Origin: Vibrio cholerae ATCC 14035
GTDB taxonomy: Bacteria > Pseudomonadota > Gammaproteobacteria > Enterobacterales > Vibrionaceae
NCBI RefSeq assembly: GCF_000621645.1
Contig: NZ_KK211323.1
Location: 154,947 to 186,946, forward strand
Reading direction: 5' to 3'
DNA length: 32,000 nucleotides
Part shown: positions 10,167 through 29,775 of the stretch, piece after piece
Layout of the letters: each line of letters starts with the position of its first letter
How positions within the stretch are numbered: position 1 is the stretch's first letter
Position numbers and translations under genes: made by a program
Notes under the pieces: model-generated
Told to the model about the DNA's origin: nothing
The model's database searches: none
The model's input: the letters and a program-made list of their open reading frames with translations, nothing else

Positions 10167-10684
10167 TGAGCTTGGTCGATTTTTTGTAGTCGATATGTAC
10201 CCCTAGTCAATAATTTACCAATCCGCTTTTACGGGAATGCACAGATAATTATTTATTGGAAATGTTTATTGGCGACTTTTTATTGTGTGGGGTTATTCTG
10301 ACTCTTGGGTTAATGACTTGGCGGCTATCTTTATAAAAACATGTTGTTTTTGTATATCAGTATTGTCTGATTTTTTATTTATGATCAAAAATAAAGTGAC
10401 TGACTTATTTGGCGTGAGTGATTATTGACCTGAAATGTAATTAAGTGTGACTGAAATTTGTATTGATTAAGGTTTTGTGCATTGAATTTAAAGGGTTGGC
10501 ATTGATCTTGTGCCTATTTTGTTGTTTGGGTATTTATCTTAATTATGGTTCTTTCTAGCGAGCGATAATTTTATTGAACCGTGATCTCAATGATTTTATG
10601 AATTATTTCTTTCTGATTATTTTCAAGTTCTCAATGAGTTTGTTTAAAATTATGAAAGTGTCGTTACATTTGCTTACATCCGTT

Positions 10685-10717
10685 TGAAACAGACTGAAAC
10701 AGTTTCTTTTCTATAAT
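10685..10717 (+). promoter_or_regulatory. Candidate activator-dependent promoter of the chitinase gene
   Basis: Perfect TATAAT at 10712..10717 with no acceptable -35. The -35 zone is occupied by the direct repeat TGAAACAG-AC-TGAAACAG (10685..10702). Confidence 0.35.
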
Positions 10718-10756
10718 GAGACATAAATTTTGTTCAATAAAATAAGTCTCGAAATA

Positions 10757-17343: not shown

Positions 17344-18333
17344 TTAGCTGGCTGCGCGACGCAGCCGATCATGCACGGCAAGCCACGCTTCACCTTGTGG
17401 TGGACGCTCTAACCAAATTTCATCTACGCCCCATTTATCCACTTCGGCCAGAGAGCGGTACAAGGCTTGGCCGTAGGCTTTGGCTTCTTGCGGCATCGGC
17501 TTGAGTAAACGCTGCTCGCTGGCTTGCAGCGCAGAGAGATTAAGTAGCGCGATGCGAAGCTCATCCGATTGAGTGGCAAGCTCACGGGCTAGGTCATCAA
17601 TCACCCGTAGGCGCGTTTTCGGTTGATAGTGGCTATCGACATTTCCCGGCACCGCAACTTGATGAACTTGTGGCTGCAGTACTTCTTGACCCAATACCGC
17701 GCTAAGTTCACTGGCCGTTATCGGGCCTGCGCGCAGTACACGAAAAGGTTTGCTGGTTAAATCGACAATCGTGGATTCCAAACCGTGTTGGCATTCACCG
17801 CCATCCAAGACTGCGGCGAGTCTGCCATTCAAACCATCAAGCACCTGCTGGGCTGAGGTTGGGCTGAGTTTTTTGTAGGGGTTGGCCGAAGGTGCCGCCA
17901 CCGCTAAGCGATGCGTCTTCAAAATATCCAGCAAGACAGGATGAGCGGGAACACGAATGCCGACCGATTCTAAACCGCCAGTCACAACAGGTGAAACCTG
18001 CTTGGCTTTGGGGAGCAAGAGCGTCAAAGGCCCCGGCCAAAAAGCTTCGGCAAGTTGATACGCTTCTGGCGCAATATCGGTCGCCCATTCAGAGAGTTGT
18101 TCTGCCGACCCGAGATGGACGATCAACGGATGATTCGCTGGGCGACCTTTGGCACTAAAAATCTGCTTCACCGCTTCAGGTTGGGTGGCATCGGCCGCCA
18201 GTCCATAAACGGTTTCGGTCGGTATCGCAACCAGTTGGCCTTGCTTAAGTAACTGAGCTGCGCATTCAATATCAGCAGGTGTCATCGCTGAAAGCTGTTG
18301 GGTATTCAACAAAAAATCTCCGTGGTTCGGCAT
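17344..18333 (-). CDS. L-threonylcarbamoyladenylate synthase, long form (Sua5/YwlC type with C-terminal Sua5 domain)
   Basis: 329 aa. YrdC-fold motifs LVAIPTETVYGLAADA, KGRPANHPLIVH and GIRVPAHP, plus an extra C-terminal domain of about 120 aa. Confidence 0.85.
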   Translation of the reverse strand: MPNHGDFLLNTQQLSAMTPADIECAAQLLKQGQLVAIPTETVYGLAADATQPEAVKQIFSAKGRPANHPLIVHLGSAEQLSEWATDIAPEAYQLAEAFWPGPLTLLLPKAKQVSPVVTGGLESVGIRVPAHPVLLDILKTHRLAVAAPSANPYKKLSPTSAQQVLDGLNGRLAAVLDGGECQHGLESTIVDLTSKPFRVLRAGPITASELSAVLGQEVLQPQVHQVAVPGNVDSHYQPKTRLRVIDDLARELATQSDELRIALLNLSALQASEQRLLKPMPQEAKAYGQALYRSLAEVDKWGVDEIWLERPPQGEAWLAVHDRLRRAAS

Positions 18334-18578
18334 AACTTACTCGCATCATCCATTCACCGATGAAAGGGTGTCCGGTGTTTTGAAGGGCGGCATTCTAACA
18401 AAATTTGACCCAGATCCCTACTCAAGAATGCTTTTGAACGATAAACCTTAGTATGGAGTTTATCGATAACTTTAAAACTAAAAGTGTGCACCGCTACCGT
18501 TTACATATCCGATAATGAACTACACTGAGGTTAAGGTATTGGTTTATATCGCAACCCTAACATTGGAATGAAAAAGAG

Positions 18579-18944
18579 ATGGAGCAGAGTGTCGCATTTA
18601 ACATTTCGACAATCGCCAAAATGGTCGGCAGCGATCTGGTAGAGCCTATGTTGGTGAGCTATCAAGAGAACACGCAAGCTCAGTTGACGAAATTAATCAC
18701 GATTGTTGCAACGCAGTCCGTCAGTGAGCTGCATCGCTTGGCACACAGCATGAAATCCTCGGCAAGGTTCATTGGTAGTGATGCTCTGTCCGAATTCTGT
18801 TTTCAACTTGAGATGAAAACGGCCGCCGACCCAGAGTGGCATAGTGACTATGTGCGGCAAGTGGAAGAATTATGCCAGCGAAGTCGCGATGTCCTTGAAC
18901 AAGTCACCATCTATCTAGAACAGCAAAAAGTGAGTAATCGATGA
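18579..18944 (+). CDS. Stand-alone histidine phosphotransfer (Hpt) protein
   Basis: 121 aa four-helix-type protein. Hpt signature ELHRLAHSMKSSARFIGSDAL (HxxKxxxxxxG; His56, nt 18744..18746). Confidence 0.85.
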   Translation: MEQSVAFNISTIAKMVGSDLVEPMLVSYQENTQAQLTKLITIVATQSVSELHRLAHSMKSSARFIGSDALSEFCFQLEMKTAADPEWHSDYVRQVEELCQRSRDVLEQVTIYLEQQKVSNR

Positions 18945-20083
18945 CAGTAGAAGCGATGAAAGTTGTTTGCGTCGATGACGACGATTTTATGCTCAAAGCG
19001 TTAGGACGTATGATTCGCCGCATGCGACCTGATTGGGAGATTGAGTTAGTTGAAGATGCTAACCATTGGGTGGTGGATGTAGAGCACGCGCCTAGCGTGG
19101 TGATTTCCGATCTGCTGATGCCGGGGAAAAATGGTGAAGCCTTGCTGACGGAATTACGTGCGCGTTGTCCAGAGACTATGCGGGTACTGTTAACCGGAGA
19201 TACGACCCAAGAATTGCCTCGTAAAGCGCACACCTATGCGCAATTTGTGCTTCCTAAACCTTTTACTCACGAAGATTTTGAACATCTTTTCTTATGTGTC
19301 GAACGGCTGTATCGAATGCCGTTCAATATTGAATGCCGCAAGCGACTGGGGGCGTTAGAGGAAATTCCGATCCTGCCTAACTCCGTTCGTAAGTTACAAC
19401 AAGTGATTGCTTCGCCAAATTGCAGTATGGACGCGATTGCGGAAACCATAGTTCATGAGCCTGTATTGGTGGCCAAAATCATTCAAATCGCCAACTCATC
19501 CTACTTTGGTTTTCGGCGTAATACCGATTCGCTGCATGAAGCGGTTGCGCGTTTGGGCGCGGTTTTGGTGGAGTCTATCGCCATCTCTTTGCTCGCAATT
19601 CATCCCAGTAATGTGAACTCAGCGGAAGATCATCAATGGGTGGCAGATTGCGCCTTCAAATCCAGCTCCATTGCCAGAGCATTGGTGAGAGAGTTGGGTT
19701 TTCCGCGTCAGGATCAAGACCGGATTTTTGTGGCGAATTTACTGACCTCAATTGGCAAAATTCTGCTGCTCGAAGATGGTGCAAGTAAAAAAGAGTTTTT
19801 GGATTACTACCACTTACAGCCTGGGTATGCCGATTGTGATGTGATATCGGCATACATACTGATTATGTGGGGCTACGATATTGATATAGGGGATATCATT
19901 CTCAACCAAAGATTGACCTCGTTTAGCGGTGAGCATTTAGAGCAGCTAGGCAGTCTTTCATGTCTGGCGAATAGAATTGAAAATTGCAAGCAAATCAATG
20001 AATACCGACAGCTTGTACAAGAAGCACCAGACTCAATACAAGGTGCGCTCAAGGAACTGGAAACTCAATTTTTTCCAGCTTAG
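18941..20083 (+). CDS. Response regulator, REC + HDOD output domain
   Basis: ATGA start/stop overlap with the Hpt gene. REC has DDDD acidic pocket, VVISDLLMPGKNG (Asp57), LLTGD and PKP. HDOD-like region: LPNSVRKLQQVIASPNCSMDAIAETIVHEPVLVAKIIQIANSSYFG. Confidence 0.85.
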   Translation: MTVEAMKVVCVDDDDFMLKALGRMIRRMRPDWEIELVEDANHWVVDVEHAPSVVISDLLMPGKNGEALLTELRARCPETMRVLLTGDTTQELPRKAHTYAQFVLPKPFTHEDFEHLFLCVERLYRMPFNIECRKRLGALEEIPILPNSVRKLQQVIASPNCSMDAIAETIVHEPVLVAKIIQIANSSYFGFRRNTDSLHEAVARLGAVLVESIAISLLAIHPSNVNSAEDHQWVADCAFKSSSIARALVRELGFPRQDQDRIFVANLLTSIGKILLLEDGASKKEFLDYYHLQPGYADCDVISAYILIMWGYDIDIGDIILNQRLTSFSGEHLEQLGSLSCLANRIENCKQINEYRQLVQEAPDSIQGALKELETQFFPA

Positions 20084-20117
20084 TCAGTGAAATACTGAAT
20101 TTTAAGGGAGTGAGTTT

Positions 20118-20483
20118 ATGGCGATTCGACTAACGGTAGCTGATGATTCAAAGATGTCACGCAAGTCCGTGATTAGGGCGATTCCTGCCGGTTGGGATGT
20201 AGAGATAACCGAGGCTCAAAATGGAAAGGAAGCCGTAGAGAACTATAACAATGGCCTTGCTGATGTGATGTTTCTCGACCTCACCATGCCTGAAATGGAT
20301 GGGATACAAGTCTTGGAACACTTTCACCGCATTGATGCGAAATGCTTAGTTATCGTGATTAGTGCGGATATTCAACCCTTGGTTCAGCAACGAGTTCGAG
20401 AGTTGGGCGCGCTGAACTTTTTGCAAAAGCCACTCGATCCAGCGCAACTGGAACAAACACTTCATGAGGCAGGGTTGCTATGA
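20118..20483 (+). CDS. Single-domain CheY-like response regulator
   Basis: 121 aa. VADDS, MFLDLTMPEMDG (Asp54), VISAD, QKP. No output domain. Confidence 0.9.
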   Translation: MAIRLTVADDSKMSRKSVIRAIPAGWDVEITEAQNGKEAVENYNNGLADVMFLDLTMPEMDGIQVLEHFHRIDAKCLVIVISADIQPLVQQRVRELGALNFLQKPLDPAQLEQTLHEAGLL

Positions 20484-21064
20484 GCATTGTACTTTCCGCA
20501 GATCACAAAGACGCATTGCAGGAATTCATGAACATCTCTATGGGTCGAGCCGCCAGTAAGCTTGCGACCTTGCTTAATTTGCACGTCACCATCTCCGTTC
20601 CCAACATTCGGGTCGCGACAGAGGAAGATATGCGTGCGCTGCAGTCTTATGCCGCTGATTATTATTACACCCGACAATCTTTCTACGGCGGAATGGATGG
20701 AGAGCTGATCACCTTAATGAGCCGTTGCGGTTGTGAGCAAGTGGTCAATGACCTTAACCATTCGAAAGGTATGGCGGATGGATTAGTCAGTATTGAAGAG
20801 AGCATTTTGGATATCTCCAACATCCTTTCTGGGGCGAGTTTAAAAGGTCTATGTCAACAGATTGAATTGAAAACCAAAATTCAACCACCAGTCATCTTTG
20901 ATCCGACCCATCAGCCTTTGCCAATTTTGCAATGGCGTCTGTCTTTGATTATGGAAATCAATTTTCTGGTTGAGAAGGCCTCTTTTTCTGCCAAAACCAT
21001 CATCTGTTTTGCTGATAAAGAGTTAGATAAGGTATTTGCCCATCTCGACGAACTCTTGATGTAA
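20480..21064 (+). CDS. CheC/CheX-family aspartyl-phosphate phosphatase-like protein
   Basis: ATGA overlap with the CheY-like gene. Residues D11-x3-E15-x2-N18-x22-P41 (DALQEFMN...SVP) fit the CheC-family consensus D/S-X3-E-X2-N-X22-P exactly. A second, variant site is E107-x3-D111-x2-N114-x22-P137. Confidence 0.75.
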   Translation: MSIVLSADHKDALQEFMNISMGRAASKLATLLNLHVTISVPNIRVATEEDMRALQSYAADYYYTRQSFYGGMDGELITLMSRCGCEQVVNDLNHSKGMADGLVSIEESILDISNILSGASLKGLCQQIELKTKIQPPVIFDPTHQPLPILQWRLSLIMEINFLVEKASFSAKTIICFADKELDKVFAHLDELLM

Positions 21065-21074
21065 GGATACGAGT

Positions 21075-22394
21075 ATGGCAAAGAGTCGTTTATTGCTCTC
21101 TGAACTACTGGATCAACTCTCTTTTGCGCTCTGTATCGTGCGTAATGACTATGTGATCGTCAAAGTGAATGAATATTTTGAATCACGTGTCATTTTTGAT
21201 GGGGAAACCATGCAAGGGAAGAACATCCTAGAGCTATTTCCTGAATCCGCCGATTATTTAAAGCGCAAAATTGATACGGCGCTGGTGATTGAATCCTCCA
21301 GTTTCAGCAGTTGGGAGCAGAAACCGCATCTTTTGCCTTTCAAAAGTTCTCGCCCAGTGTCGGGCGAAGAAGAGCAGATGTATCAAAACCTCGAAGTGAT
21401 CCCGATCCACAGTGAAGATGGGACGATAGAGCATGTCTGTCTCTGTGTGTATGACGTCACGATTCAAGCGAGCCAGCAACAGGAACTTAAGCGAGTATCG
21501 CAAAAGCTTGAAGAAGAGCATCAATCCCAAAAAGTGTTAATCAAGAAACTGGAAGATGCACAAGGGCAATTAATTCAATCGGAAAAAATGGCCTCAATTG
21601 GTCAACTTTCTGCGGGGATCGCCCATGAAATTAATAACCCAGTAGGCTTTATTACCTCGAACCTACAAACGTTAAGCGACTACTTTAATAGCTTAGAGAA
21701 AGTTCTGAAAAGCATTACCCAGACGATTGGTCAGAGTAAAGACACGGCACTCAATGAAGCTTGTCAGAAGATCCTTAAACAAGGACAAGTAGATTTTATT
21801 TTGGAAGACACGGCGGAGTTGATTACCGAATCTCTCGAAGGCTCTTCACGCGTCATGTCGATTGTAAAAAACCTCAAAGAGTTCTCACACGTTGACCGTT
21901 CAGAGTGGAGTTACGCCAATCTAGAAAACTGTATCGAATCGACGTTGAAAATCATCAATAACGAGATCAAGTACAACATCACGTTGGAGAAACACTACGC
22001 GGCCAATGTGCCCGATGTTTTTTGCCAGCCGATGCAGATCAATCAGGTGTTACTCAACATATTGGTGAATGCCAGCCATGCCATCAAAGGCGAAGGGACG
22101 ATCACCATTACCTTACAATCTGCGGGGGACGACTTTGTTGAAATACACATTCGAGACACGGGATGCGGTATTCCGGAGGAGATCCGCGAGCGTATTTTTG
22201 AACCCTTCTTTACCACAAAACCTGTCGGTTCGGGGACCGGATTAGGTTTATCTGTCTCCTACGGCATTATCAATAAGCACAATGGTACGATCAGCGTCAC
22301 CAGCGAAGTCGGTAAGGGGAGCGAATTCACCATTCGTTTACCGGTGAATCCCAGTGCCGAAGCGGTAGACAATACCGATGCCAAAGCGATGTAA
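21075..22394 (+). CDS. Cytoplasmic PAS-domain sensor histidine kinase
   Basis: 439 aa, no TM segments. N-terminal PAS-like fold, coiled coil, H-box [25 protein letters not shown]-box [11 protein letters not shown]1 DTGCGI, F-box FEPFFTTK, G2 GTGLGLS. Confidence 0.9.
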
Positions 22395-22405
22395 ATGGGG
22401 GCATT

Positions 22406-23710
22406 ATGGTAGACAAACTACGCACTTCTGGCGCAGCTATGCGAGAACAAGAGAATGATTGCCATATTCCTTTTGCTCTGTTGGCCTTTATCAAGGTGCT
22501 GTTTTCCAATGTAAAGCCAAAGCGTAAGTTCGATAGTTTAATGACCACCATCAGCGATTTAGTGCCCGGGTGTCAGATTGCGTTACTTGAACGTCAATCC
22601 GACGAGCACTGGCGTATTATTCAAACCAGTGGCTTGACAGTGGAGACTCGCTTCAAAACCGCATTACCTCCATTTATTGAAGATGAGTGGTACTGCATGC
22701 CGAATGTGCAAGCGGAAATGGTGTGGCGAGAGCATTACGCACACTGTTTTCCTGACTGTCAGAGCGCCTTAGCTGCGAAGTTTCACACCGCCGAAAATCA
22801 TTATCTCCTGCTGATTATGCAGCCGATGTTGGATGGTTTTAATCATTCACAACGCGATGAGTTATATGCGCTATTTGATGTTACCAAAAGTGCGCTTTAC
22901 TCCATGCTGCAATTTCGCAAAACCGTTATCGATAAGCATCAGGTTCAGCAAGAAGAAAAATTGGCGTCTTTAGGTAAGTTAGCCGCTGGCGTCGCCCATG
23001 AAATCAATAACCCGCTTGGGTTTGTGATGAGTAACTTCAGTTTCCTGAATGAATACGTTGCTCAGATAAGGCAGCATCCACAAATTCAACCGATAGCCGA
23101 CCCTAGGCTTCATGAGATGATCGCCGATAGTGAAGCGATCTTGATGGAGAGCTTAGAGGGACTGTCGCGGATCAAAAATATCGTTTCGAGCCTCAATGTG
23201 TACTCACATACGCATGAAAATATGGCAGAAATTGATATGCGTGACGTACTGAGTTCGGCACTGGCTTTGATTATTGGTGATCTGAAATACCGAGCTCAGT
23301 TTGTGTATCCCGCACCAGAAAAGCCTTATTACATTCGTGGCAGCTACAACAAGCTGCAACAAGTGTTTATCAACTTGATTATTAATGCGGTGCAATCCGT
23401 CTCTGCAACCCAAGAAGGGGTCGTGCGTCTTGAGCTCTGTGAAGTCCGTTGGCCGGGAGAAGGCATTCCACGCGTACAAGTGCTGATTGAAGACAATGGC
23501 AAAGGGATCAGTGCAGAGCACCTTGAAAAAGTGTTTGATCCCTTTTTCACAACTAAAAAAGTTGGTGACGGAGCGGGCTTGGGGTTATCCGTGGCACGTG
23601 AAATCATCGAAGAACACCATGGCAAAATAAAGCTCTGTTCGACAGAAGGGGTCGGAACGCGAGTCTTTGTGACACTGCCACAAGCGGTGCGTGCTCAAGG
23701 AGCCTTCTGA
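22406..23710 (+). CDS. Cytoplasmic sensor histidine kinase with uncharacterised (GAF/PAS-like) N-terminal domain
   Basis: 434 aa, no TM segments. H-box QEEKLASLGKLAAGVAHEINNPLGF. N-box NLIINAVQS, DNGKGI, FDPFFTTK, GAGLGLS. Confidence 0.88.
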   Translation: MVDKLRTSGAAMREQENDCHIPFALLAFIKVLFSNVKPKRKFDSLMTTISDLVPGCQIALLERQSDEHWRIIQTSGLTVETRFKTALPPFIEDEWYCMPNVQAEMVWREHYAHCFPDCQSALAAKFHTAENHYLLLIMQPMLDGFNHSQRDELYALFDVTKSALYSMLQFRKTVIDKHQVQQEEKLASLGKLAAGVAHEINNPLGFVMSNFSFLNEYVAQIRQHPQIQPIADPRLHEMIADSEAILMESLEGLSRIKNIVSSLNVYSHTHENMAEIDMRDVLSSALALIIGDLKYRAQFVYPAPEKPYYIRGSYNKLQQVFINLIINAVQSVSATQEGVVRLELCEVRWPGEGIPRVQVLIEDNGKGISAEHLEKVFDPFFTTKKVGDGAGLGLSVAREIIEEHHGKIKLCSTEGVGTRVFVTLPQAVRAQGAF

Positions 23711-25320
23711 TGCAAAGCAACCGTGAAATTCTGCTAGTGGATGATGAACCTGCGGTGTTGAATGCCTTAAAGCGCGAGCTGCGTCCTTATTTCCCCCATC
23801 TACATACCGCCACTTGTGCGCAAGAAGCGTTAGAGCTTTTAAAGCAACATCCAGTACAGATGGTGATTTCCGATTATCGGATGCCGGGCATGAATGGTGC
23901 GGATTTGGTGATAGAGATTAATCGCCGCTATCCGCACATTATGTCGCTTATCCTCTCTGGGCAGGCGGATATGAATGGATTATCGCGAGCCTTGAATGAA
24001 GGCGATCTGTACAAATTTTTGCTCAAGCCTTGGGAGCGAAATTATCTGCTGCAAACAATCTTGCAGTGTTTTAGTGAAAAAGAGCGCCGTGAAGAGTTTG
24101 ATACCGTTTCCGGACTCAAAACATGGCAAGTACTCAACAAACAGATCTCATTATTACAGTCACTGGCTGACCACCCCTATCTTGTGCTGATCATGGAGTG
24201 GACGGCGCCGCTGGAGGACCTGCAAAAACAAGCCATTTCGCAACATGTGATCCAGCAACTTCCAGAAACTGAGCACATCTATCAAGATGGAGCACGTTGG
24301 TTTTGGGTTACTCACCGCTTAACGCCTTGGTATCAAACATTATTTAAGTTAATTGATAGCTTTCAGAACCCAGCACCTTCAGATAATGCGGCCTTTGATA
24401 TTGCTCAGCCGCCGCATTGGTGGATTGCCGATATTGAGTCTTGGCCTGATGTTGAGTTGAAGTTAGTCAATCCGCCATGTGAGAAAAGCGCGTTGGTTGA
24501 TCATTTCCCTATCTTTGGGTTGGGCAATGTGGACGAGACGCTGGAAATTAAACAGCTATTGAATATTTATCGTGACCTCCAACTCGGCCATTTTTGTGCC
24601 TTCTATCAGCCTCAAAAGCACATCGATTCTGGGGGCGTCGTAGCGTTTGAAGCCTTAGCCAGACGAGTGATTGGCAAAGGATTGTATGAAATGCCCGATC
24701 GTTTTTTCCCGATCTTGGAAAAGTACCATTTGATCCCGACGTTAACTGAAGTCATGGTGCGCGACATTTTGACCTTTTTAATGACGGAAGATGCGGTCTT
24801 ACAAGACATCACCATAGGGGTAAATATTCCGGGAAAAATGCTCACTGACGGCAGTTTTTATCGTTTGTTACTGAGCGTCGCGGAGGAGAAGCAAGCACAA
24901 CATGCGTTGCATCGACTCTCTGTTGAGATCACGGAACACGATTTGATTGCGGATTTTGATGCCGCTAAACATGAGATTTATAAGCTAAAATCATTAGGAA
25001 TACGCTGCGCGTTAGATGATTTTGGTACGGGATATTCTGGTTATGAGTACTTGTGTGAAATTCCGTTTGATGTAGTGAAAATTGATGGGCGATACATTCA
25101 AAGTTTGGGCAAGGCGGAATCAAGTACGGTCATTTTACAATCGATGATTTCTAGCATTAAATCCTTGTCTATGCAGGTGATTGCAGAATGGGTCGACTCA
25201 GATCAGCAATATCAAATTTTACAAGAGATGGGATGTGACCTGGTGCAAGGTTATTTAGTTAGCCCGGCTATTTCACCACAACAAGTCCTGAACTATCTCC
25301 ATAACAAACTATCTCCATAA
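23710..25320 (+). CDS. Response regulator, REC + vestigial GGDEF-like region + EAL c-di-GMP phosphodiesterase
   Basis: ATG overlaps the preceding TGA by 1 nt. REC has LLVDDE, MVISDYRMPGMNG (Asp55) and LLKPW. EAL domain has intact signature residues: AFEALARRV, GVNIPG, EITEHD, DDFGTGYSG, KIDG, AEWVD, QGY. Confidence 0.9.
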   Translation: MQSNREILLVDDEPAVLNALKRELRPYFPHLHTATCAQEALELLKQHPVQMVISDYRMPGMNGADLVIEINRRYPHIMSLILSGQADMNGLSRALNEGDLYKFLLKPWERNYLLQTILQCFSEKERREEFDTVSGLKTWQVLNKQISLLQSLADHPYLVLIMEWTAPLEDLQKQAISQHVIQQLPETEHIYQDGARWFWVTHRLTPWYQTLFKLIDSFQNPAPSDNAAFDIAQPPHWWIADIESWPDVELKLVNPPCEKSALVDHFPIFGLGNVDETLEIKQLLNIYRDLQLGHFCAFYQPQKHIDSGGVVAFEALARRVIGKGLYEMPDRFFPILEKYHLIPTLTEVMVRDILTFLMTEDAVLQDITIGVNIPGKMLTDGSFYRLLLSVAEEKQAQHALHRLSVEITEHDLIADFDAAKHEIYKLKSLGIRCALDDFGTGYSGYEYLCEIPFDVVKIDGRYIQSLGKAESSTVILQSMISSIKSLSMQVIAEWVDSDQQYQILQEMGCDLVQGYLVSPAISPQQVLNYLHNKLSP

Positions 25321-25336
25321 AAAATAGGGGAGCGCT

Positions 25337-26680
25337 ATGCAAATGGATAACATGCACGATGAGAAGTTAAACGTCCTGTTACTTGATGATGAAAACGATA
25401 TTTTGAAAGCGCTTAACCGTGTGTTGCGGATGGATTACAACGTAGTGACCTTCGATAACGGCGCTGATGCGTTGGAATATCTGCAGGAAAACCCAATCCA
25501 CATCATCATCTCGGATATGCGTATGCCAGAGATGGATGGTGCAGATTTTCTTGCCAAAGCGCGAGAAATGCAGCCGGATACGGTGCGTTTGCTGCTCACC
25601 GGATATGCGGATATTCAATCGACAGTACGTGCGGTTAACGCAGGAGGGATTCATACCTACATCAGCAAACCTTGGGACAACGAAAACCTCAAGCTCATTG
25701 TAGGAAAAGCCGCCGAGTTTTATCGCTTAAGTCGGGATAAAGAGCGCCTGACTATTGAATTGGAAGAACGCAATAAAGAACTGGAAGTTGCGAATCAGGC
25801 ATTAGCTGAGAATAACCATAAACTTGCGCAATTTAATCAAGAATTGGAGGCGAAAGTACAAGAGCGTACCGTCGCCTTACAAGAGAGTAACAAGCGCTTA
25901 GAATCCTTGCTTGCTTCACGCAATAAAACGTTTAAAGATATTTTGGCTATGGTGACCGCGATTATCCAGCATCGTACGGGGTTCCCTGCGGATCATGCAG
26001 AGCGGATCGCAAATCAGGCCAAATCGGTCGCTCTTAAACTGAAATTATCAGAGGCCGTTGCCAGCCATGTTTATTTATGTGGGCTTATGCATCAAATCGG
26101 CCTGATTGCTGAAACCAGTAATGACTGGAAAGTGGTCAAGGTGCATCAGGATTCGGAGATCCCCATTACCCCGAACGTGAATCCGATTTTGGGTGCAGAA
26201 ATTGTGGGCCGAATTAAGCGCTTTGAACCGCTGATGGAAATTATCCGTCATCAAGATGAGCTGTATGATGGTACAGGGAAGCCGGATCATTTACGTGGTG
26301 AGCAAATTCCGATTGGTGCGCGGATCATAAAAGTCGTCAAAGATTATGACTTCTTAGTTGCGGGGGCGAATAACCCAAGACGCATGCACACCAAAAGTGC
26401 GCAAGGCTATCTGCGTCAGCAGTCCGAAGTCTATTACGATCCTAAAGTCGTGGAAGCCTTTATTACGATTGTGAGTGCAGTGACTCGAATTGAAGAGGGT
26501 ATGGAACTGTGTGTCAGCCTGAGCGAAGTGCGTCCGGGCATGGTTATCAAACGTGATATCTATCTACCCAACGGCAATTTAATGCTGACGGCTGGCAACG
26601 CAATGAGTGAGCCTTTATTACGTAAACTCAAAGAGTTAGAACAAGAGATGAATATGCCGATCCCTGTTTATATAGGATAA
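25337..26680 (+). CDS. Response regulator, REC + coiled coil + degenerate HD-GYP domain + short C-terminal module
   Basis: REC has LLLDDEND, IIISDMRMPEMDG (Asp60) and ISKPWD. The HD-GYP-like region has HQ for HD (LMHQIGL), HQD for HHE and GKP for GYP (RHQDELYDGTGKPDHLRGEQIPIGARI). Confidence 0.88.
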   Translation: MQMDNMHDEKLNVLLLDDENDILKALNRVLRMDYNVVTFDNGADALEYLQENPIHIIISDMRMPEMDGADFLAKAREMQPDTVRLLLTGYADIQSTVRAVNAGGIHTYISKPWDNENLKLIVGKAAEFYRLSRDKERLTIELEERNKELEVANQALAENNHKLAQFNQELEAKVQERTVALQESNKRLESLLASRNKTFKDILAMVTAIIQHRTGFPADHAERIANQAKSVALKLKLSEAVASHVYLCGLMHQIGLIAETSNDWKVVKVHQDSEIPITPNVNPILGAEIVGRIKRFEPLMEIIRHQDELYDGTGKPDHLRGEQIPIGARIIKVVKDYDFLVAGANNPRRMHTKSAQGYLRQQSEVYYDPKVVEAFITIVSAVTRIEEGMELCVSLSEVRPGMVIKRDIYLPNGNLMLTAGNAMSEPLLRKLKELEQEMNMPIPVYIG

Positions 26681-26716
26681 GGGCATAGGATAAAGAGATA
26701 AGAATTAGTCAGGTCG

Positions 26717-28336
26717 TTACGGTTTGTTGGGGGCTAACGGTAGGGGGGCTAACGGTAGAGTAATTAACACTCGGGTGCCTTGTCCTAGTTCACTAAAGAG
26801 TTGTATGTCGCCATCGTATTTTTTGATGCTGCTGTAGGCCTCGGTTAAACCGAGGCCTACGCCTTTACCCACATCATGAGTGGTAAAGAAGGGGTCAAAA
26901 GCGTGCTGTTTTTCTTCGATACTCATACCGCGACCAAAATCGCGCACCTCAATTTCTAACTGTTGATGATCATGACGCAGCGAAAGTTCGATACGGATCA
27001 TTGGGTCATCGGAGGCGTAAGCTTGATAGGCGTTATTTAAAATCGCACTCAACGCGGTCACGAAATCGTTGCTGTAGCAATAAATCAACGGTGGATAGAG
27101 GGTTTGTTCTTTCCAGACTACCCACTCTCGTAATCCGCAAATTTGAATGGCTTGTTCCACTAAGCTGAGTGGAGAAACCCAACTGCTGTCATGGAGCGCG
27201 GGTTCGGCTTGGCAACGCTGAACTTTATCGACAATCGTTTTTATTCGGTCAACACAGTGCAGCGCATCCCTAAGGCTTTCCTCAATCCCTGAAAAACTCT
27301 CTTCGAGATAAAGCGCATTTTTGGTTTGGGTGAACTTGCCATGAAAATCACTTCCGCTTAGCAGAATATCAATCTGTTCAAATCCCACCTTAAGTTGATT
27401 AAAGTCTTGTTGGAGTAGCTGCAAGTGGCTTTTCAGTGCGCCATTAGGGTTGTTAATCTCATGAGCAAAGCCTGCAGCCAGTGTACCAATCGAAATCATT
27501 TTCTCGGTTTCAACCAGCTTATCTTTCATTAAAGTGAGCTTAGTATTCATCTCTTCCAGTTGCTGATTTTTTGCGAGTAGGGTTTCCGTACGCTGGTTAA
27601 CCTTATCTTCAAGCTCCAAATTCCACTGCTCAAGTTGATGTTGGTAATCTCGCATGGTCGCTTCTGAATGGCGCAGCGATTGCACCATTTGTTGAAAAGA
27701 GTGGGCGACGCGACTGATTTCATCATGACCTTGGATTTCAAGCAGGACTTCACGATTGCCGAAGGTGATTTGATCGGTTGCGGTTTTGAGTTCCGTTAAA
27801 CGTCGGGTTAAGGCATTCCCCAACAAGTAAGAGAACAGGGCGACTAAGCCCATTTCCCCTAGCACAATCAGTAGTGTCCATTTACGGGCGTGAGCGAGTT
27901 GTTGCTCGAGATAAGAGAGATCAAAGCCGATAAATACGGTACCAAACAGAGTGCCGCTCACCTCAATAACATCGGTGATGGGATAGATGGATTGGAGTTT
28001 AGAAAAATCTTGATCGTTAATCGTATGGTAAGCCTCGAATAAATCGCGGTTGCCTTTAAAGGTTAAGAGTTTTCCATGGGGATTTTCGACCGCGACATAG
28101 ACGATGTCTTGATTGGACATCATTAACGTGGCGGCAGAATCGATACTGGCCAGATCGTAAGCCAGTACTGGATTTTTCACCATAGTGGCAAATAGAGCAA
28201 TGGTCGTTTGGGCGCGCTTTTGTAATCCATCATAGTTGGTGGACTCAAGATAGCTTAGGGTGAAGGTGATCAAAATCGTCAGCAACAAAGCTTCGATCAA
28301 CGCCACACCAAGCATGGTCTTTAAGCGTATCGACAT
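26717..28336 (-). CDS. Membrane sensor histidine kinase (TM - periplasmic domain - TM - HAMP - coiled coil - HisKA - HATPase)
   Basis: 539 aa. TM1 LGVALIEALLLTILITFTL, periplasmic segment of about 130 aa, TM2 WTLLIVLGEMGLVALFSYLLG, HAMP. H-box TEKMISIGTLAAGFAHEINNPNGA. N-box ILNNAYQAY, DFGRGM, FDPFFTT, GVGLGL. Confidence 0.9.
   Translation of the reverse strand: MSIRLKTMLGVALIEALLLTILITFTLSYLESTNYDGLQKRAQTTIALFATMVKNPVLAYDLASIDSAATLMMSNQDIVYVAVENPHGKLLTFKGNRDLFEAYHTINDQDFSKLQSIYPITDVIEVSGTLFGTVFIGFDLSYLEQQLAHARKWTLLIVLGEMGLVALFSYLLGNALTRRLTELKTATDQITFGNREVLLEIQGHDEISRVAHSFQQMVQSLRHSEATMRDYQHQLEQWNLELEDKVNQRTETLLAKNQQLEEMNTKLTLMKDKLVETEKMISIGTLAAGFAHEINNPNGALKSHLQLLQQDFNQLKVGFEQIDILLSGSDFHGKFTQTKNALYLEESFSGIEESLRDALHCVDRIKTIVDKVQRCQAEPALHDSSWVSPLSLVEQAIQICGLREWVVWKEQTLYPPLIYCYSNDFVTALSAILNNAYQAYASDDPMIRIELSLRHDHQQLEIEVRDFGRGMSIEEKQHAFDPFFTTHDVGKGVGLGLTEAYSSIKKYDGDIQLFSELGQGTRVLITLPLAPLPLAPNKP
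26729..26758. repeat. Perfect 15-bp tandem duplication at the 3' end of the HAMP kinase gene
   Basis: GGGGGCTAACGGTAG (26729..26743) is repeated exactly at 26744..26758. It is in frame and encodes LPLAP-LPLAP in the C-terminal tail ...TLPLAPLPLAPNKP. Confidence 0.95.
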
Positions 28337-28339
28337 CGC

Positions 28340-29152
28340 TTATTCCTTAAGCAGATGAGAGAGGGTTTGGATATCTAATTCACGGATGTCGTCCCAATCA
28401 CTGTCTCGAGCGGCTTCAATGCCGGAAAACCCAATCGCCTTAAGCTGCAAACGGCCTTTCTCGGTCTGATCAAGGTTGACTAATGCATTTTGCACAGCGG
28501 ACACCTGATCTGAGTGCAATCTTGGATGATAGGCGAAAGCGTGCGGCGTAAAGCTGGGGCTTTCCCACAATATTCTGAGTTGGCTGGTGATGGCCTTTGG
28601 GGCATTGTTAAACGTGCGTTTAATACCACCACCTGCGACAAAAAAGCCATTCGCCACATTCAAGTAAACGGAATCGTGTGAGGAGACATATTGAGACTCA
28701 ATATTTATCCCTTCTTTTTTTAACAGCGCTTGAGGAATGATGGTGGCAGCAAAGGCCGCAGGAGAGGGAAAGGCGAGACTTTTTCCATCGAGATCTTGTA
28801 TGGACTTTATCGGGTTCTCTTGGGCAACCACTATGATGCCTTGTAGCTTTTGATCTTTTTGCTTGGCCAGCGCGACATACCCCGGCTGTTGATGAAAGAA
28901 GGTGTAGTGATAAGGATTCATGTACACCAAATCATACTCGCCATTTAGCACTCGCTGTTCAAATTCAGGAATAGTCGACGCGGTATGAAACTCAATAGAG
29001 AAGCCTGTCGTTTCAGAAAGATTTTCCAGAATCGGCACCCAACGCTTCGCTAATTCTTCAGGGGATTGTTGTGGGACGACGCCAAAAGAGAGGGGGGAGG
29101 CCCAAGTAAATGATGAAACACACCAGATGAATATAAACCAACCGTAGCGCAT
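28340..29152 (-). CDS. Orphan periplasmic substrate-binding protein, PhnD (phosphate/phosphonate-binding) family
   Basis: 270 aa. Signal peptide MRYGWFIFIWCVSSFTWA. PhnD-like LSFGVVPQQSPEELAKRWVPILENLSETTG...YDLVYMNPYHY...GKSLAFPSPAAFAATIIP. Its stop is 3 nt from the kinase start. No permease or ATPase genes are nearby. Confidence 0.8.
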   Translation of the reverse strand: MRYGWFIFIWCVSSFTWASPLSFGVVPQQSPEELAKRWVPILENLSETTGFSIEFHTASTIPEFEQRVLNGEYDLVYMNPYHYTFFHQQPGYVALAKQKDQKLQGIIVVAQENPIKSIQDLDGKSLAFPSPAAFAATIIPQALLKKEGINIESQYVSSHDSVYLNVANGFFVAGGGIKRTFNNAPKAITSQLRILWESPSFTPHAFAYHPRLHSDQVSAVQNALVNLDQTEKGRLQLKAIGFSGIEAARDSDWDDIRELDIQTLSHLLKE

Positions 29153-29695
29153 AAAGTTACCTTTGGGTTTCTAATACTAATGGGGTAAGTATAGAAAATG
29201 GTTGATCAGCTTGGTGATTATTTTCTGGTAAAGAAAAGTGATGAATAAGTGTTGCTCTATCTGTTCAGCAAAATTTACGTTTTTACTCAATACAGATTGA
29301 TAGGCTTGAAGGAGGCTCAAAATCCGTCGTCTTATACCAAACGATTGCTTGAAACGTAGGTTTGATATTGCTCACGTTTTTGTGTTGTGAGATAGCGCAT
29401 TGTCATTAAGAGTTGGTGTTTTTGTGTACAAAATGTTAAATAGATCAGAGTTATCTAGCATAATGCGCTGTACATTGAGGGCGCACTAGATAATCTGGCA
29501 CATTGTCTGTTTAGGCCAGCTTCCACGCTCTAATCCGCTAGAGATAATCATGAGTGGTGAAGTTTTTTACTAATGTCTGAGAAAACCAAAGAGGATAGTC
29601 TGTTTTTAAGACATTTTTATGGCAAATTAATTCAATGATTGCTAATGTGTGCCGCAATCCCTGTCAGGTGTAAGTTGTTTTTGTTTAAAACTTAT

Positions 29696-29715
29696 ACGAC
29701 AAACGACAACAATCA
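29696..29715 (+). promoter_or_regulatory. C/A-rich element in the oppA leader (candidate sRNA target / translational enhancer)
   Basis: ACGACAA-ACGACAA tandem heptamer followed by CAATCA (29696..29715), 60-80 nt upstream of the oppA ATG. It is preceded by a complementary GU-rich tract GTTGTTTTTGTTT (29674..29686). Confidence 0.3.
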
Positions 29716-29775
29716 GCCGTTCTGAATACCTGACATGGAAGTCATGGATGCAATACTAAAACTTGGAGTTTATGC

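What the first reader, a model, noticed from the sequence alone, without database searches (positions are those of the whole stretch)
18579..29152. Ten-gene phosphorelay / c-di-GMP signalling island with no system-level description that I know of
Eight genes are packed head to tail: Hpt, REC-HDOD, CheY-like REC, CheC-like phosphatase, PAS kinase, second kinase, REC-EAL, REC-HD-GYP. Junctions are a 4-nt ATGA overlap at 18941, a 34-nt gap, a 4-nt ATGA overlap at 20480, gaps of 10 and 11 nt, a 1-nt overlap at 23710, and a 16-nt gap. They converge on a 2-gene unit encoding a PhnD-like periplasmic binding protein and a HAMP kinase. In total that is 3 kinases, 1 Hpt, 4 receiver domains and 1 receiver phosphatase. 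The three outputs are all phosphodiesterase-type folds (HDOD, EAL, HD-GYP), and only the EAL looks catalytically intact. This composition matches neither a chemotaxis cluster (no CheA/CheW/MCP/CheB/CheR) nor a classical two-component pair. From memory, individual genes here (the EAL and HD-GYP proteins, VC1086/VC1087) have been used as c-di-GMP tools or screened singly. I am not aware of the signal, wiring or physiological role of the module being defined.
Basis: partly seen in the sequence, partly recalled or inferred. Interest (0 to 1): 0.85.

Follow-up and report, generated by a model that had tools for sequence, protein, structure and literature searches.

The report
Extended HnoB/HnoD c-di-GMP signalling island
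This ten-gene Vibrio cholerae cluster is real and tightly packed, but its two main output genes are the already-studied nitric-oxide-network regulators HnoB and HnoD; what remains untested is the set of three related sensor kinases and helper proteins around them, which probably feed extra signals into the same biofilm/motility switch.

Summary
In detail: all ten ORFs, every junction and every domain call are correct. The window is V. cholerae VC1080-VC1089.

The claim of "no system-level description" is only partly right. VC1086 and VC1087 are HnoB and HnoD, the output arm of the published H-NOX/HnoK nitric-oxide c-di-GMP network. VC1080-VC1087 is already called an 8-gene operon in the literature. 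VC1088 has recently been noted as an adjacent orphan kinase.

I found no paper assigning roles to VC1081-VC1085 or VC1088/89. VC1080 has one overexpression phenotype.

New here:
- All three island kinases are HnoK paralogues with near-identical H-boxes but different sensors: PAS, a cryptic GAF, and a periplasmic PhnD-like binding protein plus HAMP.
- The island is a mosaic of modules that re-associate in different orders across Vibrio, Granulosicoccaceae and Betaproteobacteria.
- The CheY-like/CheC-like pair is a rare, conserved unit tied to c-di-GMP enzymes, not to chemotaxis.

Best reading: a multi-kinase extension of the Hno network converging on HnoB/HnoD. The wiring is inferred, not shown. 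Interest is moderate; it is a new variant of a known kind.

The parts
18334..18578 (+). 245-nt intergenic region upstream of VC1080, the presumed operon promoter region; it is divergent from a Sua5/TsaC-family gene (17344-18333, minus strand)
   Evidence: No promoter was mapped here. The sigma-70 consensus scan found nothing above chance. The assignment is an inference.
18579..18944 (+). VC1080, standalone Hpt phosphotransfer protein (121 aa) with His56 in an HSMKS motif
   Evidence: Pfam Hpt 42.8 bits; weak LuxU/TorS-Hpt similarity; sequence. Overexpression gives formic-acid sensitivity (PMC10631443). Present in V. anguillarum and V. gazogenes at the same position. In V. olivae an Hpt-like ORF sits after hnoD. 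Absent in V. tritonius and V. penaeicida.
18941..20083 (+). VC1081, REC-HDOD response regulator with a non-catalytic HD-related output
   Evidence: Pfam REC 43.4 bits and HDOD 93.6 bits. Its REC is weakly related to the HnoB/HnoD RECs (43-48 bits). HDOD structures are its closest PDB relatives. A separate HDOD gene accompanies REC-HD-GYP relatives in 34 of 60 long loci.
20118..20483 (+). VC1082, single-domain CheY-like receiver
   Evidence: Pfam REC 77.5 bits. Belongs to a distinct, strongly conserved receiver family: 203, 132 and 128 bits to the V. anguillarum, Methyloversatilis and Paraburkholderia counterparts. It directly precedes the CheC-like gene in 14 of 14 loci examined.
20480..21064 (+). 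VC1083, CheC-like receiver phosphatase with a single intact active-site motif
   Evidence: Pfam CheC 49.5 bits and CheX 38.1 bits. One D-x3-E-x2-N-x22-P motif at residues 11-41. PDB relatives are CheC 1xkr, 2f9z and 4hyn. Rare subfamily: 5 representatives at E<=1e-30 among 1.84 billion.
21075..22394 (+). VC1084, cytoplasmic PAS histidine kinase and HnoK paralogue
   Evidence: Pfam PAS_4, HisKA and HATPase_c. Kinase core is 41-45% identical to true HnoK of V. tubiashii, Thalassomonas and Shewanella. DHp helix 1 matches at 19 of 27 positions. No TM segment. Its PAS domain is the solved structure PDB 3mxq. It was grouped with VCA0719 in 2009 (PMC2709254).
22406..23710 (+). VC1085, cytoplasmic histidine kinase with a cryptic N-terminal GAF-like sensor; HnoK paralogue
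   Evidence: Pfam finds only HisKA and HATPase_c. AF2 model of residues 1-185 has pLDDT 76.5 and pTM 0.70. The top 50 Foldseek PDB hits are GAF domains, TM 0.5-0.7, best E 5e-5. DHp helix 1 matches HnoK at 16-21 of 27. Full-length homologues occur only in the V. cholerae, V. anguillarum and V. gazogenes clades.
23710..25320 (+). VC1086 = HnoB, REC-(degenerate linker)-EAL c-di-GMP phosphodiesterase
   Evidence: Pfam REC 76.1 bits and EAL 213.8 bits. Catalytic residues are intact. Orthologous to the Thalassomonas HnoB encoded next to hnoD-hnoX-hnoK. The literature identifies it as HnoB. Residues 126-280 have no Pfam match, whereas orthologues hit GGDEF there.
25169..25188 (+). Published AphA ChIP-seq motif inside the 3' end of hnoB, about 150 nt upstream of hnoD
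   Evidence: Exact match to the motif listed in PMC6855506. Its functional role was not tested.
25337..26680 (+). VC1087 = HnoD, REC plus catalytically dead HD-GYP; inhibitor of HnoB
   Evidence: NCBIfam NF053512 473.9 bits against a cutoff of 400. Degenerate HQ / HQDE / GKP motifs. Inactive in vivo and in vitro (PMC4212101). Orthologues sit directly beside hnoX-hnoK in Shewanella sp. VB17 and Thalassomonas, and near them in V. tubiashii.
26717..28336 (-). VC1088, membrane HAMP histidine kinase (2 TM segments, periplasmic loop of about 120 aa); a more distant HnoK-family member
   Evidence: Pfam HAMP and HATPase_c. TM segments at 3-31 and 153-174. Same AHEINNP H-box, 29-31% core identity to HnoK and 13-14 of 27 in helix 1. 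Found with its binding-protein partner next to hnoD in V. olivae, V. tritonius, V. tubiashii, V. penaeicida and Granulosicoccaceae. Regulated by LuxT and called an orphan kinase.
28340..29152 (-). VC1089, PhnD-like periplasmic binding protein; presumed ligand-sensing partner of VC1088
   Evidence: Pfam Phosphonate-bd 226.4 bits, but below the PhnD equivalog cutoff (95.9 against 261). Closest solved relatives are PtxB, HtxB, ArrX, AioX and PhnD. No ABC permease or ATPase lies adjacent in the window.

Best explanation
The island is the V. cholerae output module of the known nitric-oxide/H-NOX c-di-GMP network (hnoB-hnoD), embedded in a lineage-specific multi-kinase extension.

Shown by others: the unlinked kinase HnoK (VCA0719), controlled by H-NOX, phosphorylates HnoB, which activates its EAL phosphodiesterase. 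HnoK also phosphorylates HnoD, a dead HD-GYP protein that inhibits HnoB until it is phosphorylated.

Shown here: the island's three kinases are paralogues of HnoK with the same H-box. Each carries a different sensor: a PAS domain (VC1084), a cryptic GAF domain (VC1085), and a periplasmic PhnD-like binding protein acting through a HAMP kinase (VC1089/VC1088).

Inferred:
- These kinases are additional inputs that converge on HnoB, HnoD and the third receiver with a dead HD-type domain (VC1081). Periplasmic, cytoplasmic and NO/redox cues would then jointly set HnoB activity, and so c-di-GMP and the biofilm/motility choice.
- The CheY-like receiver VC1082, with its dedicated CheC-type phosphatase VC1083, acts as a phosphate sink or timer that drains the kinases.
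- The Hpt protein VC1080 lets phosphoryl groups move between receivers.

The island is a mosaic of separable modules, not a fixed 8+2 unit.
For: Identity of the core:
- NCBIfam NF053512 is above its cutoff for VC1087.
- HnoD and HnoB orthologues lie directly next to hnoX-hnoK in Thalassomonas (hnoC | hnoB hnoD hnoX hnoK) and Shewanella, and nearby in V. tubiashii.
- The literature supports the identification.

Kinase paralogy:
- VC1084 is 41-45% identical to true HnoKs, VC1085 is 33-36% and VC1088 is 29-31%.
- In DHp helix 1, VC1084 matches at 19 of 27 and VC1085 at 16-21 of 27. True HnoKs of different genera share 19-23 of 27.
- An independent 2009 study grouped VC1084, VC1085 and VCA0719.

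Sensors: PAS, GAF fold, and a binding protein related to ArrX/AioX plus a 2-TM HAMP kinase.

Linkage:
- Same eight genes in the same order in V. anguillarum.
- In V. penaeicida, PhnD, HAMP-HK, an HnoK-like kinase, HnoD, REC-HDOD, CheY, CheC and HK are all co-directional.
- Granulosicoccaceae has the PhnD/HAMP-HK pair divergent from REC-HD-GYP, H-NOX and HnoK.
- Methyloversatilis has HDOD, REC-HD-GYP, CheY, CheC and PAS-HK.
- Among 60 long loci anchored on REC-HD-GYP relatives, 53 have an HnoK-family kinase, 34 a separate HDOD gene and 30 an EAL gene.

Expression: VC1081, VC1082, VC1086 and VC1087 change together in infant mouse.

A gap this model would fill: a hnoXK deletion still disperses with NO while hnoB is NO-induced, and the authors invoke 'alternative pathways involving HnoB'.
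Against: - No phosphotransfer or genetic data exist for VC1084, VC1085, VC1088, VC1081, VC1082 or VC1083, so all wiring beyond HnoK to HnoB/HnoD is inference from paralogy and gene neighbourhood.
- Modules occur apart. hnoD-hnoX-hnoK exists without CheY/CheC/HDOD, and CheY-CheC occurs with a PAS-GGDEF and no HnoB/HnoD in Paraburkholderia.
- VC1088's specificity helix is clearly more divergent (13-14 of 27).
- Hpt is missing in V. tritonius and V. penaeicida although the rest is kept, so it cannot be essential to the core mechanism.
- Deletions of VC1086 and VC1087 give only subtle colonisation phenotypes.
- The loci compared were chosen by homology to HnoD or CheC, so the sample is small and not random.
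- The primary 2012 paper could not be read here, so I rely on reviews for its content.
Confidence: 0.55

Rival explanations
1. Insulated neighbours. The island holds two or three separate pathways that are merely adjacent. HnoB/HnoD answer only to HnoK. VC1089/VC1088 signal to an unlinked regulator. VC1084/VC1085 signal to VC1081 and/or VC1082, with outputs unrelated to HnoB.
For: The modules are found separately in other genomes. VC1088 is transcribed convergently, is LuxT-regulated on its own and is called an orphan. An AphA site lies inside hnoB just upstream of hnoD, and RpoS binding is reported, which suggests internal regulation. One transcriptome paper guessed that VC1081 is the cognate regulator of VC1085. 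Paralogous kinases are usually insulated from one another (general knowledge of two-component systems).
Against: The same modules re-associate in different orders and orientations in distant lineages: V. penaeicida, Granulosicoccaceae, Methyloversatilis and V. tubiashii. That is hard to explain without functional coupling. VC1084 and VC1085 are about as close to HnoK in the specificity helix as HnoK orthologues are to each other. The published S. oneidensis network already integrates two kinases on the same regulators.
Confidence: 0.25
2. Linear four-step phosphorelay. A non-hybrid kinase (VC1084 or VC1085) phosphorylates the single-domain receiver VC1082. The phosphoryl group then passes to Hpt VC1080 and on to the output receivers VC1081, HnoB and HnoD. 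The CheC-like VC1083 acts as a checkpoint phosphatase on the intermediate receiver, analogous to Rap/Spo0E in the sporulation relay.
For: All the parts needed are present and none of the three kinases is a hybrid. Hpt has its conserved His and VC1082 its Asp. Salinispirillum has a fused HK-REC-Hpt hybrid in the equivalent neighbourhood. Hpt and the VC1085-type kinase co-occur in three clades.
Against: According to the reviews, HnoK phosphorylates HnoB and HnoD directly, without an Hpt. V. tritonius and V. penaeicida keep CheY, CheC, kinase and HnoD but have no Hpt. V. olivae has an Hpt-like ORF without the second kinase. Salinispirillum keeps a separate CheY-CheC pair in addition to its hybrid kinase, so the CheY there is not the relay receiver.
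Confidence: 0.12
3. Motility output. VC1082 is a true CheY that binds the flagellar switch, and VC1083 resets it. The island would then control swimming directly as well as through c-di-GMP.
For: The CheY-like and CheC-like folds fit this. FliY/CheC family members act at the flagellar switch (established knowledge). NO and c-di-GMP signalling affect flagella in V. cholerae.
Against: There is no CheA, CheW, MCP, CheB or CheR anywhere in the island. The pair's conserved neighbours are HnoK-type kinases and c-di-GMP enzymes, including a PAS-GGDEF in Paraburkholderia. VC1083 has only one of the two CheC active sites and no FliN-like domain.
Confidence: 0.06

Closest known systems
H-NOX/HnoK-HnoB-HnoC-HnoD (plus HnoS/NosP-NahK) c-di-GMP network of Shewanella oneidensis, also reported for V. 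cholerae (Plate & Marletta 2012, via reviews PMC8738867, PMC8846402 and PMC6335343)
   Same: VC1086 and VC1087 are HnoB and HnoD themselves. The design is the same: a phosphorylation-activated REC-EAL enzyme with a dead REC-HD-GYP inhibitor. More than one kinase feeds the same regulators. In other genera hnoB, hnoD, hnoX and hnoK are contiguous.
   Different: In V. cholerae, hnoX/hnoK are unlinked; no H-NOX is found in the window, and the review places them on chromosome II. hnoC is absent. No FIST/NosP gene is present. Instead the island carries PAS, GAF and binding-protein/HAMP paralogues of HnoK, a REC-HDOD, a CheY/CheC pair and an Hpt. None of these is part of the published network as far as the held literature shows.
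Multi-kinase networks converging on shared phosphotransfer partners, such as V. cholerae quorum sensing (CqsS, LuxQ, VpsS and CqsR to LuxU to LuxO) and the P. aeruginosa GacS network
   Same: Several sensor kinases with different inputs, an Hpt protein and a shared downstream regulator. VC1080 shows weak LuxU similarity.
   Different: The island kinases are not hybrids. The outputs are c-di-GMP enzymes or their regulators rather than a transcription factor. Convergence here is inferred, not demonstrated.
Binding-protein-dependent sensor kinases: AioX/AioS, ArrX/ArrS, TorT/TorS and LuxP/LuxQ
   Same: A periplasmic binding-protein gene sits next to a membrane kinase with a periplasmic loop, with no transporter genes alongside. 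ArrX and AioX are among the closest solved relatives of VC1089.
   Different: Sequence similarity is low (E 1e-6 to 1e-9). The ligand is unknown. The partner kinase belongs to the HnoK family, and no dedicated transcription-factor regulator is adjacent.
CheC/CheX/FliY CheY-P phosphatases of chemotaxis systems
   Same: VC1083 has the CheC fold and one D-x3-E-x2-N-x22-P active-site motif. It is always paired with a CheY-like receiver gene.
   Different: No chemotaxis proteins accompany it. It has one active site rather than CheC's two. Its conserved partners are HnoK-type kinases and c-di-GMP enzymes.
Sporulation-type phosphorelay with phosphatase checkpoints (KinA-E to Spo0F to Spo0B to Spo0A, with Rap/Spo0E)
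   Same: Several kinases, a single-domain receiver, a histidine phosphotransfer protein, terminal regulators and a phosphatase acting on a receiver.
   Different: Hpt is dispensable in several species that keep the rest. Direct phosphotransfer from HnoK to HnoB/HnoD is reported. There is no sequence relationship to Spo0B or Rap.

Membership tests
Hno (H-NOX-associated) c-di-GMP network | REC-EAL phosphodiesterase (HnoB) with intact catalytic residues | tested here: met
   Pfam REC and EAL. Catalytic residues are present. 32-35% identical over the full length to the Thalassomonas HnoB encoded beside hnoD-hnoX-hnoK. REC-to-REC score of 131 bits.
Hno (H-NOX-associated) c-di-GMP network | REC plus degenerate HD-GYP regulator (HnoD) | tested here: met
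   NCBIfam NF053512 scores 473.9 bits against a curated cutoff of 400. Degenerate HQ / HQDE / GKP motifs are shared by all gammaproteobacterial orthologues. Experimentally inactive (PMC4212101).
Hno (H-NOX-associated) c-di-GMP network | H-NOX sensor and HnoK kinase encoded with the regulators | tested here: not met
   tblastn with H-NOX finds nothing in the window. The review places them at VCA0720/VCA0719 on the other chromosome. They are adjacent in Shewanella sp. VB17, Thalassomonas, V. tubiashii and Granulosicoccaceae. Adjacency is not required for network membership.
Hno (H-NOX-associated) c-di-GMP network | Phosphotransfer from HnoK to HnoB and HnoD; inhibition of HnoB by HnoD | not testable with these tools
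   Reviews report this for S. oneidensis and V. cholerae. The primary paper is not held in the library.
Hno (H-NOX-associated) c-di-GMP network | HnoC transcription-factor regulator | tested here: not met
   No REC-HTH ORF lies in or beside the island. The review states that hnoC is absent from V. cholerae. Thalassomonas has it.
HnoK-family histidine kinases (for VC1084, VC1085, VC1088) | Kinase core and DHp helix homologous to H-NOX-associated HnoK | tested here: met
   41-45%, 33-36% and 29-31% identity to three true HnoKs, with a shared AHEINNP H-box. Helix 1 matches at 19, 16-21 and 13-14 of 27 positions. An earlier paralogue grouping agrees.
HnoK-family histidine kinases (for VC1084, VC1085, VC1088) | Regulation by an adjacent H-NOX protein | tested here: not met
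   No H-NOX in the window. The sensors are PAS, a GAF-like fold, and a binding protein plus HAMP.
Chemotaxis (Che) signalling cluster | CheA kinase, CheW coupler, MCP receptor, CheB/CheR adaptation enzymes | tested here: not met
   None of the ten proteins matches these Pfam families. Only a CheY-like receiver and a CheC-like phosphatase are present.
CheC/CheX/FliY phosphatase family (VC1083) | CheC fold with the D/S-x3-E-x2-N-x22-P active site (two copies in CheC, one in CheX) | tested here: met
   Pfam CheC and CheX are both above cutoff. There is one motif at residues 11-41 and no second copy. PDB CheC relatives were found. Catalysis was not tested.
His-Asp-His-Asp phosphorelay | Hybrid kinase or free intermediate receiver, plus an Hpt with a conserved His, upstream of a terminal regulator | tested here: inconclusive
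   Hpt with His56 and a free receiver exist, and no kinase is a hybrid. However, Hpt is absent in V. tritonius and V. penaeicida, which keep the rest.
Binding-protein-dependent sensor kinase (AioX/AioS type) | Periplasmic binding protein encoded with a membrane kinase and without transporter genes | tested here: met
   Phosphonate-bd protein with a 3-nt gap to a 2-TM HAMP kinase. No permease or ATPase is adjacent. The pair is conserved in five other loci. The ligand and the protein-protein interaction were not tested.

The most novel reading that the evidence does not exclude
Two linked readings remain open.

1. The CheY-like/CheC-like pair, together with an HnoK-type kinase, is an unrecognised and phylogenetically dispersed (Gamma- and Betaproteobacteria) 'phosphatase-gated' module dedicated to c-di-GMP enzymes. 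That would be a non-chemotactic use of a CheC phosphatase.

2. The PhnD-like binding protein with its HAMP kinase is a second, periplasmic input to HnoB/HnoD. It recurs beside hnoX-hnoK in V. tubiashii and Granulosicoccaceae. It might sense an oxyanion related to NO chemistry, such as nitrite or nitrate, which would explain the HnoXK-independent NO responses reported in V. cholerae.
Probability: 0.2. Interest if true: 0.65.

Novelty: new variant of a known kind. Interest (0 to 1): 0.45.

Why it matters
HnoB (VC1086) is one of the most widely used c-di-GMP phosphodiesterases. It is the output of the only mapped NO-to-c-di-GMP phosphorelay in Vibrio. Yet recent work shows that deleting hnoX/hnoK does not abolish NO-induced c-di-GMP decline and biofilm dispersal, while hnoB is induced by NO. 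The authors explicitly invoke unknown alternative pathways through HnoB (PMC12704800).

This analysis names concrete candidates: three HnoK paralogues encoded beside hnoB/hnoD, each with its own sensor, plus a phosphatase-equipped receiver that could set signal lifetime. If confirmed, the Hno system would be a four-input multi-kinase network that integrates periplasmic, cytoplasmic and NO/redox cues at a single phosphodiesterase. It would also show a CheC-type phosphatase working outside chemotaxis. All of this can be tested with standard phosphotransfer profiling and existing V. cholerae genetics.

Tried and rejected
1. Hpt and the VC1085-type kinase as an obligate pair. They looked concordant in 6 of 6 species. 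A translated search then found an Hpt-like ORF after hnoD in V. olivae, which lacks that kinase (Pfam 24.3 bits against a cutoff of 24.6). The idea is downgraded to a weak tendency.

It returned mostly 30-37%-identical betaproteobacterial REC-HD-GYP loci rather than a clean Vibrionaceae/Shewanella sample. These were useful for the deep core statistics but not for counting conservation of the exact island.

3. I could not retrieve the S. oneidensis MR-1 cluster (SO2538-47) to test directly whether VC1084 or VC1085 correspond to HnoS/NahK. NCBIfam gave no NahK-type hit among the top matches, so I do not equate them.

4. The primary papers (Plate & Marletta 2012 and 2013, Nisbett 2019, Waters 2008) are not held. 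I relied on reviews.

5. The promoter and terminator consensus scans gave nothing above chance within the island and no hairpin in the 36-nt convergent gap. This neither supports nor refutes a single transcript.

6. HnoB residues 126-280 gave no Pfam match even at E 0.1. A degenerate GGDEF remnant is inferred only from orthologues.

7. The first literature search for VC1088/VC1089 was swamped by unrelated 'HNOs' hits and was repeated cleanly.

8. No Rfam family lies in the island.

Full report
**What is there.** The window is Vibrio cholerae chromosome I. All ten proteins match V. cholerae database entries exactly, and the UniProt accessions Q9KT25 to Q9KT16 run in order, which implies VC1080 to VC1089. 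The ORFs lie at the stated coordinates. There is a 36-nt gap to the convergent VC1088 and 3 nt between VC1088 and VC1089. Pfam confirms each domain. The flanks are a divergent Sua5/TsaC-family gene and an OppA-like binding-protein gene. G+C content across the island (0.43-0.48) is unremarkable.

**Residue-level checks.** All four receivers keep the acidic pair, the phospho-acceptor Asp, the T/S and the Lys. Hpt has His56 in HSMKS. The EAL domain has its complete catalytic set. The HD-GYP reads HQ, HQDE and GKP where active enzymes have HD, HHE and GYP, and it was inactive in vivo and in vitro (PMC4212101). The HDOD is non-catalytic. The CheC-like protein has one D-x3-E-x2-N-x22-P motif (residues 11-41), not two. 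So the observation, including 'only the EAL looks intact', is confirmed.

**What is already known.**
- NCBIfam places VC1087 above the curated cutoff of a nitric-oxide-network response-regulator family (NF053512, 473.9 against 400 bits).
- Reviews state that H-NOX (VCA0720) controls the kinase HnoK (VCA0719). HnoK phosphorylates HnoB (VC1086), which activates its phosphodiesterase, and also HnoD, a dead HD-GYP that inhibits HnoB. This is reported as demonstrated in S. oneidensis and V. cholerae (PMC8738867, PMC8846402, PMC6335343).
- In S. oneidensis two kinases (HnoK and HnoS) feed three regulators.
- VC1080-VC1087 is called a predicted eight-gene operon. Deletions of VC1086 and VC1087 slightly enhance colonisation, and VC1081, VC1082, VC1086 and VC1087 change expression together in vivo (PMC4441509).
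- HapR, AphA and RpoS have been linked to VC1086/87.
- Overexpressing vc1080 sensitises cells to formic acid.
- I found nothing that assigns function to VC1081-VC1085 or VC1089.

The output pair has a defined signal and pathway; the other eight genes do not.

**The kinases.**
- The three island kinases share an almost identical H-box (A-H-E-I-N-N-P) with genuine HnoK kinases taken from loci where HnoK follows H-NOX.
- Core identity to three such HnoKs is 41-45% for VC1084, 33-36% for VC1085 and 29-31% for VC1088.
- In DHp helix 1, the main partner-specificity element, VC1084 matches at 19 of 27 positions, VC1085 at 16-21 and VC1088 at 13-14. True HnoKs of different genera share 19-23.
- A 2009 study had independently grouped VC1084, VC1085 and VCA0719 as one expanded family.
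- VC1084 carries a PAS domain whose structure is deposited without functional annotation (PDB 3mxq).
- The N-terminal 185 residues of VC1085 have no Pfam match. They model with pTM 0.70 as an alpha/beta domain, and the 50 best PDB matches are all GAF domains.
- VC1088 has two transmembrane segments around a loop of about 120 residues. It is encoded 3 nt from a PhnD-like binding protein whose nearest solved relatives include ArrX and AioX, binding proteins that signal through kinases.

The island therefore encodes three HnoK paralogues with three different sensors.

**Comparative genomics: a mosaic, not a fixed 8+2.**

| Organism (locus) | Gene order |
|---|---|
| V. anguillarum (L084) | Hpt, REC-HDOD, CheY, CheC, PAS-HK, HK, HnoB, HnoD; no PhnD/HAMP pair |
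| V. gazogenes (L088) | Same as above, minus HnoB |
| V. tritonius (L089), V. olivae (L002) | REC-HDOD, CheY, CheC, PAS-HK, HnoB, HnoD, then convergent HAMP-HK and PhnD; V. olivae also has an Hpt-like ORF after hnoD |
| V. penaeicida (L085) | PhnD, HAMP-HK, HnoK-sized kinase, HnoD, REC-HDOD, CheY, CheC, HK; all co-directional |
| V. tubiashii (L083) | HnoD, convergent HAMP-HK and PhnD, then H-NOX and HnoK |
| Thalassomonas (L082) | hnoC divergent from hnoB, hnoD, hnoX, hnoK |
| Shewanella sp. VB17 (L081) | hnoD, hnoX, hnoK |
| Granulosicoccaceae (L003) | PhnD/HAMP-HK pair divergent from an intact REC-HD-GYP, H-NOX and HnoK |
| Methyloversatilis (L055) | HDOD, REC-HD-GYP, CheY, CheC-like, PAS-HK |
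| Paraburkholderia (L087) | CheY, CheC, PAS-GGDEF |
| Salinispirillum (L086) | CheY, CheC beside HDOD, a hybrid HK-REC-Hpt and a REC-GGDEF-EAL |

Among 60 loci of at least 15 kb anchored on REC-HD-GYP relatives, 53 have an HnoK-family kinase, 34 a separate HDOD gene, 30 an EAL gene, 5 the CheY/CheC pair, 4 an H-NOX gene and 1 a PhnD-like gene.

The deep core is therefore kinase + REC-HD-GYP + HDOD, with or without EAL. The degenerate HnoD is a derived gammaproteobacterial clade, because the distant relatives keep HD, HHE and G[FY]P. The remaining parts are accessory modules that re-associate in varying order and orientation. That pattern argues for functional coupling rather than accident.

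**The CheY/CheC pair.**
- In all 14 loci with a VC1083-type gene, a VC1082-type receiver gene directly precedes it. An HnoK-family kinase is adjacent in 12 of them.
- The receiver is more conserved than its partners: 128-203 bits across Gamma- and Betaproteobacteria. It belongs to a different family from the HnoB/HnoD receivers, which group together at 82 bits.
- The phosphatase subfamily is rare, with 5 cluster representatives at E<=1e-30 and 126 at E<=1e-10 among 1.84 billion.
- No chemotaxis gene accompanies the pair anywhere.

**Mechanism.**
- Shown by others: HnoK phosphorylates HnoB (activation) and HnoD (relief of inhibition).
- Shown here: kinase paralogy, the sensor types and the modular linkage.
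- Inferred: VC1084, VC1085 and, less certainly, VC1088/VC1089 are further inputs converging on HnoB, HnoD and REC-HDOD. VC1082/VC1083 form a phosphate sink or timer. VC1080 allows exchange of phosphoryl groups between receivers.

I give this composite 0.55. The identity of the core is about 0.9, and the specific wiring is roughly 0.35-0.4. The rivals are insulated adjacent pathways (0.25), a strict four-step relay with CheC as a checkpoint (0.12) and a direct flagellar output (0.06). The relay is weakened because Hpt is absent in species that keep everything else, and because direct HnoK-to-regulator transfer is reported.

**Caveats.**
- The compared loci were chosen by homology, so the frequencies are descriptive rather than a census.
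- The S. oneidensis cluster and the primary 2012 paper could not be examined.
- Promoter and terminator scans were uninformative.

**Verdict.** The feature is real and accurately described. It is partly already explained, because the hnoB/hnoD core is known. The unexplained remainder is best seen as a new variant of a known kind: a multi-kinase, phosphatase-equipped extension of the Hno network. Interest is moderate (0.45). A specialist would not be greatly surprised. However, the analysis gives concrete candidates for the 'alternative pathways involving HnoB' invoked in recent V. cholerae NO work.

Noticed in passing
window 25169-25188 (+): The exact AphA ChIP-seq motif CTATGCAGGTGATTGCAGAA published by Haycocks et al. 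2019 lies inside the 3' end of hnoB, about 150 nt upstream of the hnoD start. This suggests an internal regulatory site or promoter for hnoD.
   Followed up: partly
window 21075-21500 (VC1084 residues 1-136): The PAS domain of VC1084 already has a deposited crystal structure, PDB 3mxq, labelled only 'Sensor protein' (E 3.8e-87). No ligand or function is attached to it.
   Followed up: no
(proteins P0021, P0036, P0055, P0148, P0289): Records labelled Aeromonas veronii, including one 4.7-Mb contig, carry copies of VC1081, VC1082, VC1083, VC1085 and VC1087. Two have measured identity: P0148 is 89% identical to VC1087 and P0289 is 90% identical to VC1085. The other three belong to the same 90%-identity clusters as the window proteins. 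This points to recent horizontal transfer of the island from the V. cholerae clade, or to mislabelled assemblies.
   Followed up: no
L002 11244-11648 (V. olivae): An Hpt-like ORF (Pfam Hpt 24.3 bits, just under the 24.6 cutoff) sits after hnoD instead of at the 5' end of the operon. The Hpt gene has therefore moved within the cluster during Vibrio evolution.
   Followed up: partly
window 24085-24549 (HnoB residues 126-280): The linker between the REC and EAL domains of V. cholerae HnoB has no Pfam match even at E 0.1. The V. anguillarum and Thalassomonas orthologues hit GGDEF there, so it is probably a decayed GGDEF domain.
   Followed up: partly
L019 (Burkholderiales MAG), whole locus: One 21-kb locus carries at least four or five HnoK-family kinase genes, together with a CheY/CheC pair, an EAL gene and a REC-HD-GYP. 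This is an even larger multi-kinase cluster of the same family.
   Followed up: no
L088 13265-13536 (V. gazogenes): hnoB is missing, and only a gap of about 270 nt separates the second kinase from hnoD. The inhibitor-type HnoD is therefore kept without its known target encoded nearby.
   Followed up: no
window 6531-6627 (+): Bacterial small SRP RNA (Rfam RF00169, 72.7 bits). It is unrelated to the finding.
   Followed up: no
window 10001-11000: A marked G+C dip (0.38, against about 0.46-0.51 around it) lies just upstream of and into a Big_7-domain ORF (10730-11701) that precedes a GH18 chitinase gene (11714-13996).
   Followed up: no
window 29153-29775: An unusually long (623-nt) intergenic region lies between the divergent starts of VC1089 and the OppA-like gene. 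No Rfam match was found and it was not examined further.
   Followed up: no
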